64,000 bases of DNA from NCBI GenBank assembly GCA_951406725.2, contig OX597820.1, forward strand, positions 9,610,001-9,674,000, written 5' to 3'. A model generated the notes under the pieces. The model worked only from the letters and a program-made list of their open reading frames with translations. It was not told the DNA's origin and made no database searches. The number at the start of each line of letters is the position of its first letter. The first letter of the stretch is position 1. Positions 14,701-17,700 of the stretch are shown here, one piece after another. The DNA is from Octopus vulgaris. Lineage: Eukaryota. The position numbers and the translations under genes are program-made.

Positions 14701-17700
14701 TATGACATTTGTGCTTGTTGCTTTCTCCATATAGAAGACCACTGGAACACTACCGCCTTCACGAGTCATGTCAGGTTCAACACCATACACTGGCAGAAAA
14801 ACAAAACACACATTAGACTTGAGTCACAGAAAAATTCCCCGAGAGAATGAAAGGCAAAGTCGACCTTGGTGGAATTTGAACTCAGAACGTAACAATAGAC
14901 GAAATACCTAATTCTTTACTGCCCACAAGGGGCTAAATATAGAGGGGACAAACAAGGACAGACAAACGGATTAAGACGATTATATCGAACCAAGTGCATA
15001 ACTGGTACTTATTTAATCAACCCTGAAAGGATGAAAGGCAAAGTCGACCTTGGTGGAATTTGAACTCAGAACATATCAATAGATGAAATACCACTAAACA
15101 TTTCTTTCAACATGCTAACAATTCTGCCAGTTGGCCACCCTACTAAATAGACATACTCTTTTACTTGTTTCAGTCATTTGACTGTAGCCATGCTGGAGCA
15201 CCGCCTTTAGTCAAGAAAATTGACCCCAGGATTTATTCTTTGTAAGCCTAGTACTTATTCTATCGGTCTCTTTTTGCCAAACTGCTAAGTTACAGGGACA
15301 TAAACACACCAGCATCGGTTGTCAAGCGATGTTGGGAGGTAGGACAAACACAGATACACAAACATATACACACACACACACATATATATATACATATATA
15401 CGACGGGCTTCTTTCTGTTTCCGTCTACCATATCCACTCACAAGGCTTTGGTCAGCCCGAGGCTATAGCAGAAGGCACTTGCCCAAGGTGCTACACAGTG
15501 GGACTGAACCCGGAGCCATGTGGTTGGTAAGCAAGCTACTTACCACACAGCCACTCCTATGCCTATTGATATAAAATGTATTAATAAATAATAATTTGTA
15601 ATGTTAAAATTGATAAATCTACTTATAGAAAATTACACAATTGCTGAGTCATATAGAAATCCCATGACATTAATAAATCTGTCTTCACCTCCCAAATCTA
15701 CTGATTCTATGATTTATATCAACACTTCTTAAACTTTTGTCATTCATGACCCTATTTTTCACCATGCAATTTTTTGCGATCCCAGGTATTAAATATGAAA
15801 TAAAACACACAAATAAATACATAAATCATTTATTTTTTTGCTGAACAAGATACATATAAAAAAAATTAGTTATATTATTTGTCAAAATAAAAGTAGTTTT
15901 AGGATTTGTGCGTTTGTGGTATAAAATACAAACTGAAATTTAAGTGTTGAATTTAATTTTCACAACCCCAGCTTTTTGCTTTCCGGGCCCCATTTGGGGT
16001 TACGACCCATAGTTTAAGAAGCGCTGATCTATACAAATATTTATGCACCTGCTTACCTTTTTTACAAGCCTTCTTAGCAGCAGTATAATTCTCGTGTTTA
16101 TAATCACTGATCCAAGCAGGACTGCCTGATGTGGTGACCCTGTGAAGTAAAAGACAGAACACCTTCCTTATAGATGGGGACTTGCAAAACTTAAAGGTCA
16201 TTTTTTACTTTCCTTCTTTCAGGGATTTTACTTTTATGCTTTATCCTCCACTTGTGGCCATGCTGGAGCTTCAACTGGAATGAAACTGATGCATTGGACA
16301 GGAATCAACTCCAGATCAACTGCTTGGAAAGAATTATTCAAGTACTGAGGTTACTGATTTGACTAACCTCTCCTAGCAAATTTACTGGACTTGTGCCTAA
16401 AGCAGAAATAACGATTATTATTATTATTATTATTATTATTATTATTGAGAGAGCAGTGCATGCCATCAAAGTGACACTGGGGTAAAATATACGAAGCCCA
16501 GTACACCCATCATGACTACCCGTCTGATAAGGTTACACTAGGCACATGCATCACTACCATATGTGCGCGACAATGTGATCTGATATCAAGATAAACAGCG
16601 CATGACCTTGCAGGTGGAGCCCAGTTAGAATTTTCTTCTGGTCGAATAACCCATCTTGCTCAAAAGGTCCCTGAATAAGGGTTGTTTAAGGATGTTGAAT
16701 GAAACACCCACGTTTCCAGAGGTGAATCATTAAAACCCCAAATAATCCCTTTCAACACCTGGCTATGATGCTCCTCAACTACTTCTGCTCGTGATCAGAG
16801 ATGCACATATCATCAGCCACCAAGGGACATGCTCAACTGGTTAAGGTCAAACAACTGACAAGCAAATCTGTAGTATTGAGCAGAATATTTGCTGTAGACC
16901 ATCTTTTATACCAAGACAAAACAATGTGCATGATAACACTTCCAATCAGTTAAGATCAGAAGCCATGAGAGCCACTGTCTAGTACTGCATCAGGACAATT
17001 ATTATTATTATCATTATTATTATTATTATTAGTTCTTTTTGAGTGTTGTGCCTCATAGAGGCAATGACCGAGACCTTTGGCATTATGACGTGCTTGAGAA
17101 GAAGACCTATCAAACTGAGCAAAATCGCAGTCATGTCAAATATCGGTGTCACACAAAATGGCACTCGTGCCAGTGGCACATATAGGTATCTCGGTGTCAA
17201 GCAAATAGCACCCATGCTGGTGGCATGTAAAAGCACCCATTACATTCTTGTTTTGGCCCTTAACTTCTTACAGTCTAAGGGGGATGGGCCCCCCCATAGG
17301 TGCCCTTCTACTGACACATTTTAGTCACCTGGGTATCAGTGACTTCTGCATTTAAACTGCATGGAAGTTTTATCTAGTTGTAACTCCTCTCTGCTGTCCC
17401 AGCTTTCAAATTTATACATAACTAGTTTAACCCTTTTGATACCAGCCCGGCTGAAACCGGCTCTGGCTCTGTAGTACAAATGTCTTGTTTTCATAAGTTT
17501 TGAATTAAAATCTTCCACCAAATCTTCATCACAATTTATGTTCCTAACACTAGCTGAATGATAACAAAGTTATTTTACTAAATTCTTTGTTATATTTAAA
17601 ATAATTGAAAGAAACACAGAGCATCTCAAAATAAATGCGGTAACGAAAGGGTTAAAAGCAGCATTCCATGTAGACTTTTAGACTAGCTCCTGTGGAGGGT

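What the first reader, a model, noticed from the sequence alone, without database searches (positions are those of the whole stretch)
14835..15142. Same tail-to-internal junction at three independent SINE loci suggests a multimer or circular RNA intermediate
Seen: the junction AAGAA(A/T)TA|GGTATTTCGTC joins the SINE 3' end back to the same position inside the head at 8.4-11.4 kb (minus), about 14905 (minus), and about 51712 and 51902 (plus). The junction is self-complementary (GAAATA..TATTTC), and units within a locus share variants. Monomeric copies also exist (23456). Known: retrozymes spread as 150-400-nt tandem monomers through circular RNA. I found no hammerhead in this unit. Inference: repeated RT template jumping, rolling-circle RT on a 184-nt circle, or one multimeric master copy.
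Basis: partly seen in the sequence, partly recalled or inferred. Interest (0 to 1): 0.72.

Follow-up and report, generated by a model that had tools for sequence, protein, structure and literature searches.

The report
Doubled SINE growing into tandem arrays
A very common short jumping repeat has the same tail-to-middle join at more than 26,000 places in this genome, likely because the join was inherited from already-doubled source copies, and its long rows of 184-base units likely grew afterwards by ordinary DNA duplication at each site, so no circular RNA is needed.

Summary
The junction is real but is a family trait, not three independent events: 26,139 exact copies genome-wide. A second fixed junction has 1,808 copies, and each junction travels with its own tail haplotype (odds ratio 425). 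Whole multimers sit in one 15-16-bp target-site duplication, and many 'monomers' end a few bases into the junction, so the inserted RNA was likely already multimeric. Long arrays grew in place: the 16-unit array's private haplotype occurs nowhere else (13 of 13); in 20 other arrays inner units carry 4.6-fold fewer private mutations than end units, and rare variants are shared between neighbours (34 of 41 contiguous, 16 expected). One circle copied round would predict neither. No ribozyme was found. The repeated tail is the 3' end of an L1/Tx1-group LINE. A minor route remakes the junction by insertion into other family copies (6 of 159). This matches the TSD-(SINE)n-TSD arrays of the blood clam and reptile SINE-derived satellites. 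The scan reported this family before on other DNA of this genome. Circle hypothesis not supported.

The parts
14837..15141 (-). Locus B (the finding): head-body-tail A, junction J1, then a second unit cut off at family position 121; about 85% identical to the family consensus, no target-site duplication found
15093..15141 (-). Locus B head (family positions 1-49) with the A-box-like motif; the B-box-like motif lies in the body (77-86)
14975..15092 (-). Locus B body (positions 50-167)
14909..14974 (-). Locus B tail A (positions 168-233), homologous to the 3' end of L1/Tx1-group LINEs of the same genome
14898..14916 (-). Junction J1 (tail A joined to position 50), joint at 14909|14908
14837..14908 (-). 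Locus B second unit (positions 50-121), sharing five derived bases with the first unit
8405..11347 (-). Locus A: 16 units of 184 bp; 15 nearly identical (inner-inner distance 0.007, 0.075 from consensus); last unit switches to another haplotype after about position 106 and ends in tail variant A2
11348..11396 (-). Locus A single head
11399..11412 (-). Locus A target-site duplication, 5' copy (14 bp, no mismatch)
8393..8406 (-). Locus A target-site duplication, 3' copy
51513..52066 (+). Locus C: head fragment (34-49), two body-tail A units (51529-51712, 51713-51896), 6-base extra piece, last body (51903-52020) and the alternative tail B (52021-52066)
23455..23775 (+). Head-body-tail A copy followed by body 142-168 and tail B: likely a composite that lost most of its second body, not a clean monomer
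59995..60225 (-). Head-body-tail A monomer, about 85% identical to consensus

Best explanation
This is a composite SINE whose tail-to-position-50 junction is likely inherited from a few already-doubled source copies, and whose long 184-bp arrays likely grew later by stepwise DNA duplication at each locus. Anatomy (shown): head 1-49, body 50-167, tail A 168-233, and an alternative tail B of an older head-body-tail B SINE; loci read head-(body-tail A)n and then end at tail A, run on into body-tail B, or restart at position 17. Step 1 (homology shown, event inferred): the older SINE gained tail A from an L1/Tx1-group LINE. Step 2 (inferred): a head-body-tail A copy became joined to position 50 of a family member, and another to position 17; each junction then descended with its tail haplotype. 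Step 3 (inferred): the units hold no run of four T, so RNA polymerase III would read through them, and the LINE enzyme would prime at tail B or at or just past any tail A, pairing a few bases with the nicked target; this gives one to three units in one 15-16-bp duplication. Step 4 (pattern shown, mechanism inferred): the internal direct repeat then expands by unequal exchange or slippage, up to 16 units here. Step 5 (cases shown): because the RNA runs on into sequence identical to family position 50 or 17, it sometimes inserts into another family copy and remakes the junction; this is a minor route.
For: Junction-haplotype linkage: tail A1+J1 26,139, A2+J1 591, A2+J2 1,808, A1+J2 188, odds ratio 425. 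Duplications flank whole multi-segment elements in 26 of 79 cases against 0 of 79 shifted controls; 21 of 46 and 28 of 54 in the larger set, median 15-16 bp (no control there). Run-on ends: 21 of 51 elements ending in tail A1 continue 3 or more bases into J1 sequence (4 of 26 for A2), and 7 of 26 A2 ends continue into J2 sequence (3 of 51 for A1); Fisher p 0.038 and 0.026. Locus A's private 29-mer: 13 of 13 genome matches at locus A. In 20 arrays of 4 or more units: 41 rare variants shared by a subset of units, 34 contiguous against 16.2 expected, only 3 shared by all units; 34 of 144 private variants lie in the 57 inner units of 97 (p 2e-17); median inner-inner distance 0.031, first-last 0.101, head-consensus 0.069. 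Inner neighbours agree at 0.89-0.95 of six polymorphic sites (0.51-0.67 expected, 17-20 pairs) while first and last units of dimers mostly agree near chance; dimer units are as far apart (median 0.115, 41 pairs) as units of different loci (0.116). Last bodies before tail B carry one haplotype in 32 of 62 (10 of 29 without selection) against 5 of 36 free monomers. Tail A aligns with LINE 3' ends: 42 of 48 columns with L268, 0 of 2000 shuffles as good; hits in 20 of 30 zf-RVT loci; that ORF has RVT_1 and zf-RVT and its best solved match is L1 ORF2p.
Against: The last body of multimers ending in tail B is older than the first (CpG transitions per unit 1.89 against 1.16; free monomers 3.53; Wilcoxon p 9e-8 on 43 dimers), which a single master does not predict; my rough estimate is that 20-30% of these loci use older material (seamless insertion, conversion or template switch). 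Their heads also lean to the older variant at position 21 (T in 23 of 61, against 18 of about 79 in tail-A-ended elements). 591 and 188 recombinant junction-tail combinations exist. Locus C's first unit has an old-type start. No source gene or transcript was identified. Absence of four-T runs occurs in 12% of shuffles, so it is weak alone. The tRNA origin of the head is not established (best z 2.4). Most loci were selected by exact junction or near-consensus matches, which favours young copies.
Confidence: 0.75

Rival explanations
1. Self-insertion is the main route: tail-A copies land again and again at position 50 of family members, guided by the run-on RNA pairing with the target or by a site-specific Tx1-type endonuclease, and join seamlessly at the 5' side, so that units stack one by one.
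For: Six of 159 J1-bearing headed elements have an older head fragment upstream that duplicates positions 50 to about 57-72, and one does so at position 17. The last body before tail B is older than the first. Tail A is LINE-derived and relatives of that LINE stack head to tail. Earlier scan notes report a Tx1 family at this site (unchecked AI notes).
Against: Stacked independent insertions would make inner units unrelated; they agree at 0.89-0.95 and share private variants with neighbours. Heads of tail-B-ended multimers are as young as those of other multimers (CpG decay 0.18 against 0.49 in free monomers). No LINE end joined position 50: 0 of 24 tail ends shown, none, 0 of 23 (sets overlap), and 0 of 23 matches of a pattern for non-SINE tails at the site. 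These searches saw only a small part of 25,799 zf-RVT candidates.
Confidence: 0.12
2. The reverse transcriptase builds each multimer at insertion by jumping between RNAs (from an RNA that starts at position 50 to the 3' end of another).
For: First and last units of dimers often carry different haplotypes; the last body is more diverged and more heterogeneous; 2-9% of junctions sit on the other tail haplotype.
Against: Fresh jumps would not tie junction type to tail haplotype (odds ratio 425); inner units would be as old as end units, and they are not; no RNA starting at position 50 is known.
Confidence: 0.07
3. A 184-nt circular RNA is copied by rolling-circle reverse transcription, as proposed for retrozymes.
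For: Exact 184-bp period and identical junction; inner units of one array are near-identical; the junction is self-complementary over 6 bases.
Against: Arrays start with a head absent from the circle and often end in tail B or J2; only 3 rare variants are shared by all units of an array against 41 shared by subsets, mostly neighbours; inner units are younger than end units; locus A's haplotype has no source elsewhere; no Rfam ribozyme and no hammerhead core motif on either strand; the circle folds no better than shuffles (z +0.85) and the junction hairpin has probability 0.07-0.09; the LINE tails end in the same GAAAT whatever follows, and J2 has no such complement.
Confidence: 0.04

Closest known systems
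TSD1-(SINE)n-TSD1 arrays of the blood clam Scapharca broughtonii (PMC11481361; passages of sections 15 and 16 read)
   Same: First SINE with complete head, repeated head-truncated units, a last unit with a complete tail, all within one target-site duplication.
   Different: There 64 elements in arrays of 4-15 units and inner units truncated in the tail; here tens of thousands of loci, the repeated unit ends in a complete LINE-derived tail and the last unit may carry a second tail. That paper suggests unequal recombination; the passages read give no dating of units.
SINE-derived satellites of squamates (PMC10702118; parts 1, 3, 4 of 5 read)
   Same: Tandem repeats of part of a SINE with a longer terminal unit, fixed unit borders across many loci, more homogeneous when longer, length varying between orthologous loci.
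   Different: The authors found no true dimeric SINEs and report subtelomeric bias; here one- to three-unit forms are themselves dispersed insertions with duplications on all large contigs listed, and most loci have one to three units.
Dimeric or complex SINEs (SINEBase definitions, PMC3531059; passages; Alu named as example in PMC10702118)
   Same: Two SINE modules amplified together from a master.
   Different: The second module lacks the first 49 (or 16) bases, the two modules have different tails, and either tail can end an insertion.
Non-LTR retrozymes (10.64898/2026.07.22.740005; abstract and introduction read)
   Same: Dispersed tandem repeats of a short non-coding unit.
   Different: Retrozymes carry a type I hammerhead in each unit and relate to Penelope elements; this unit has no hammerhead, has a single promoter-like head and an L1/Tx1-group tail.
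SINEU and Tx1-Mar of crocodilians (PMC4494074; abstract and passages)
   Same: A SINE likely mobilised by a Tx1-type LINE; insertion into another repeat.
   Different: SINEU targets a Mariner element; here the occasional target is the family itself, and no LINE at that site was found in my searches.

Membership tests
SINE (SINEBase definition) | Short (<1 kb) interspersed repeat, at least 100 copies | tested here: met
   233-bp basic form; 63 family elements in 400 kb of unselected sequence; 26,139 exact junctions.
SINE (SINEBase definition) | At least 60% identity over 60 nt with a tRNA, 5S or 7SL RNA | tested here: inconclusive
   A-box-like (13-23) and B-box-like (77-86) motifs present; best of 25 distinct genomic tRNAs z 2.4, none Ser or Leu; no ARAGORN or Rfam tRNA match.
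SINE (SINEBase definition) | Retrotransposed: target-site duplications | tested here: met
   39 of 129 against 0 of 129 shifted controls.
SINE (SINEBase definition) | 3' region shared with a partner LINE | tested here: met
   Tail A matches 3' ends of RVT_1+zf-RVT LINEs. Tail B matched no LINE end among 30 RT and 30 zf-RVT loci.
SINE (SINEBase definition) | Transcribed by RNA polymerase III | not testable with these tools
   No run on record as RNA.
TSD-(SINE)n-TSD arrays / SINE-derived satellites | Tandem units from part of a SINE, one head, one duplication around the array | tested here: met
   Locus A: one head, 16 units, 14-bp duplication.
TSD-(SINE)n-TSD arrays / SINE-derived satellites | Homogeneity rises with unit number | tested here: met
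   Median neighbour distance 0.115 (2 units), 0.097 (3), 0.053 (4 or more).
TSD-(SINE)n-TSD arrays / SINE-derived satellites | Subtelomeric or heterochromatic bias of long arrays; length differences between orthologous loci | not tested
Non-LTR retrozymes | Type I hammerhead ribozyme in each unit | tested here: not met
   Rfam scans negative; no CTGAnGA on either strand of the doubled unit.
Non-LTR retrozymes | Circular RNA of unit length | not testable with these tools
   Only contigs were served, and the junction exists in DNA.
Nin, Meta or CORE SINE superfamilies | Shared central domain | tested here: inconclusive
   Compared by eye only with printed Lottia Nin, bivalve Meta and bivalve CORE rows: no clear match. 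The octopus OK/OR1/OR2 consensus sequences (Ohshima and Okada 1994, seen only in reference lists) were not available.
Tx1 clade (partner LINE) | RT phylogeny places it in Tx1; sequence-specific endonuclease | not tested
   Only domain content and L1 ORF2p as best solved match; no tree was built.

The most novel reading that the evidence does not exclude
A self-homing SINE: because its RNA runs on past a LINE-derived tail into its own position-50 (or 17) sequence, it primes reverse transcription on other copies of its family and joins them seamlessly, so that a quarter or more of the composites are made anew in place, each then seeding a tandem array.
Probability: 0.25. Interest if true: 0.6.

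Novelty: new variant of a known kind. Interest (0 to 1): 0.35.

Why it matters
It is a large, datable example of a retroposon that sows satellite seeds: tens of thousands of dispersed loci, each with a ready-made 184-bp direct repeat, caught at every stage from one unit to 16. The dating of inner against end units gives a direct test of how SINE-derived satellites form, which the clam and reptile papers describe but, in the parts I read, do not time. It also shows internal priming by short pairing at the tail and occasional insertion into the family itself. It does not provide evidence for a new circular-RNA retroelement.

Tried and rejected
Expression: no RNA holder listed; runs guessed to be RNA were contigs and cannot show ends or circles. 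J1 or its flanks appear in contigs of runs coded as organisms A-F, which shows presence only. A genome-wide count of three successive junctions could not be run, so the unit-number distribution comes from samples (unselected loci plus window: 14 with one unit, 8 with two, 3 with three, 1 with 16). Partner search among the 30 best RT loci (a 949-aa family ending in (ATT)n and RTE-like elements) found no shared tail. My first recalled labels for the body (Nin, then Meta domain) were dropped after seeing printed sequences. A text search for three short family motifs found nothing relevant in the 25 of 39 papers listed; paper searches listed no description of this family's multimers, but subscription papers, Repbase and figure images were not searchable, and one supplement file each of PMC4824008 and PMC4758252 was unreadable. 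Helitron-type MITE with core repeats rejected: 10-22-bp duplications and a LINE tail. Assembly artefact rejected: units carry position-structured variants and the junction is in independent public runs. Look-ups of earlier scan notes by sequence returned nothing.

Full report
Observation. The window lies in G000, a 2.8-Gb animal genome; that it is an octopus is recalled from repeat types and stated in earlier scan notes, not tested here.

Anatomy. From 96 and 46 copies I built a working consensus: head 1-49, body 50-167, tail A 168-233, and an alternative 49-bp tail B. An older head-body-tail B SINE is common (33 head-body copies without tail A in 464 kb, median 78% identity). The younger forms (median 92%) read head-(body-tail A)n and then stop at tail A, continue into body-tail B, or restart at head position 17 (junction J2). 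A-box-like and B-box-like motifs lie at 13-23 and 77-86, so J1 falls between them and repeated units lack the first box. A tRNA origin is not established (best z 2.4 among 25 distinct genomic tRNAs without Ser or Leu). In 400 kb of unselected sequence there are 63 family elements, 23 with tail A, 9 with J1 and 4 with J2, which scales very roughly to 6 x 10^4 J1 loci (elements near stretch ends were dropped).

The junction is inherited. Exact counts are 26,139 for tail A1+J1, 591 for A2+J1, 1,808 for A2+J2 and 188 for A1+J2, odds ratio 425. A process that made junctions afresh from any RNA would not tie junction position to two bases ten positions upstream. Both junctions also appear in public contigs coded as other organisms.

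The inserted RNA was likely already multimeric. Duplications flank whole multi-segment elements (26 of 79, controls 0 of 79); locus A has a perfect 14-bp one. Elements that stop at tail A often run a few bases into the junction sequence, and in several the duplication begins with those bases: 21 of 51 A1 ends continue into J1 and 7 of 26 A2 ends into J2. I infer internal priming by short pairing with the nicked target. The unit has no run of four T, which fits read-through but arises in 12% of shuffles.

Long arrays grew in place. Locus A's units are 0.7% apart but 7.5% from consensus, and a 29-mer with five of their variants occurs only there (13 of 13). In 20 other arrays of four or more units, 41 rare variants are shared by a subset of units, 34 of them by contiguous units (16.2 expected), 3 by all units; five units from different loci share 0.34 on average. 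Inner units, 57 of 97, hold 34 of 144 private variants (0.60 per unit against 2.75; p 2e-17). L048 shows a ladder of neighbour-shared changes and L188 a two-unit repeat. Inner neighbours agree at 0.89-0.95 of polymorphic sites, whereas the ends of dimers are mostly near chance and as distant as unrelated loci. One rolling-circle event predicts equal age and star-like relations among units; neither holds. Window locus A was left out of these pooled counts; four duplicate loci were dropped; most arrays came from loci selected by exact junction or by likeness to locus C.

No ribozyme or circle signature. Rfam finds nothing at gathering score in the window and nothing relevant up to E 10 in locus C or a 98% copy. 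No hammerhead core motif is on either strand; the circular unit folds no better than shuffles (z +0.85) and the junction hairpin has probability under 0.1.

Origin of the tail. Prompted by earlier scan notes, I fetched zf-RVT loci. Twenty of 30 end in sequence like tail A; L268 matches 42 of 48 columns (0 of 2000 shuffles) and L261 matches positions 177-205 at 97%. The ORF has RVT_1 and zf-RVT and is closest to L1 ORF2p among solved structures; 'Tx1' is a recalled label without a tree. These LINE tails end in GAAAT whatever follows, so the complement at J1 may be chance. None of the LINE ends seen joined position 50, so the notes' claim of a LINE homing to this site is neither confirmed nor excluded here.

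Results against a single master. Eight of 159 J1-bearing headed elements have a head fragment upstream; six fit insertion at position 50 of an older copy and one at position 17. The last body before tail B is older than the first (1.89 against 1.16 CpG transitions; free monomers 3.53), though it mostly carries one haplotype rare in free monomers (32 of 62 against 5 of 36) and its head is young (CpG decay 0.18 against 0.49). I estimate that 20-30% of these composites use older material, by seamless insertion, conversion or template switching; the tools could not separate these.

Comparison. The layout is that of the TSD1-(SINE)n-TSD1 arrays of Scapharca broughtonii (PMC11481361, passages) and of squamate SINE-derived satellites (PMC10702118, parts 1, 3, 4 of 5). 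It fails the hammerhead test for retrozymes (10.64898/2026.07.22.740005, abstract and introduction). A Nin-SINE-derived 179-bp satellite is known in a limpet (PMC11121367, part 2 of 6). What differs is scale, the two LINE-or-unknown tails either of which can end an insertion, and the run-on priming. The scan has described this family twice before on other DNA of this genome.

Verdict. Observation confirmed; circle not supported; composite master plus growth in place is the best explanation (0.75). New variant of a known kind, interest 0.35.

Noticed in passing
window 52198-53148 (+): Intronless 316-aa ORF matching RNA polymerase III subunit Rpc34 (PF05158, E 5e-99), about 130 bp downstream of locus C; gene or retrocopy not decided.
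   Followed up: partly
window 51387-51498 (-): Body-tail B fragment of the same family in inverted orientation, 14 bp upstream of locus C's truncated head.
   Followed up: no
window 15201-15560 (-), with copies at 6029-6371, 27996-28370, 49952-50320 and others: A second abundant SINE-like repeat with an internal (TA)n/(TG)n tract lies 60 bp upstream of locus B; its 3' part resembles this family's body by eye.
   Followed up: no
L318-L319 (G000:C2:73044000-73064000): Four L1/Tx1-group LINEs head to tail, with the same sequence after each tail; relatives on other contigs share that 3' flank, which suggests a preferred target.
   Followed up: no
L158-L180 (24 of 30 best RT loci): A young LINE family with a 949-aa open frame, 95-99% identical copies, ending in a hairpin and (ATT)n; older tail-B SINE copies also end in (ATT)n, a possible partner without a shared tail.
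   Followed up: partly
L185 (G000:C12:11376726-11380093): Another long array of the 184-bp unit, about ten units by the BLAST pieces; not analysed.
   Followed up: no
L021:1220-1514: Two family copies nested in opposite orientation, forming a long inverted repeat with a duplication.
   Followed up: no
window 2023-2180, 3305-3552, 4829-4986, 20523-20809: A further dispersed repeat with internal 62-67-bp tandem units, another family that seeds short arrays.
   Followed up: no
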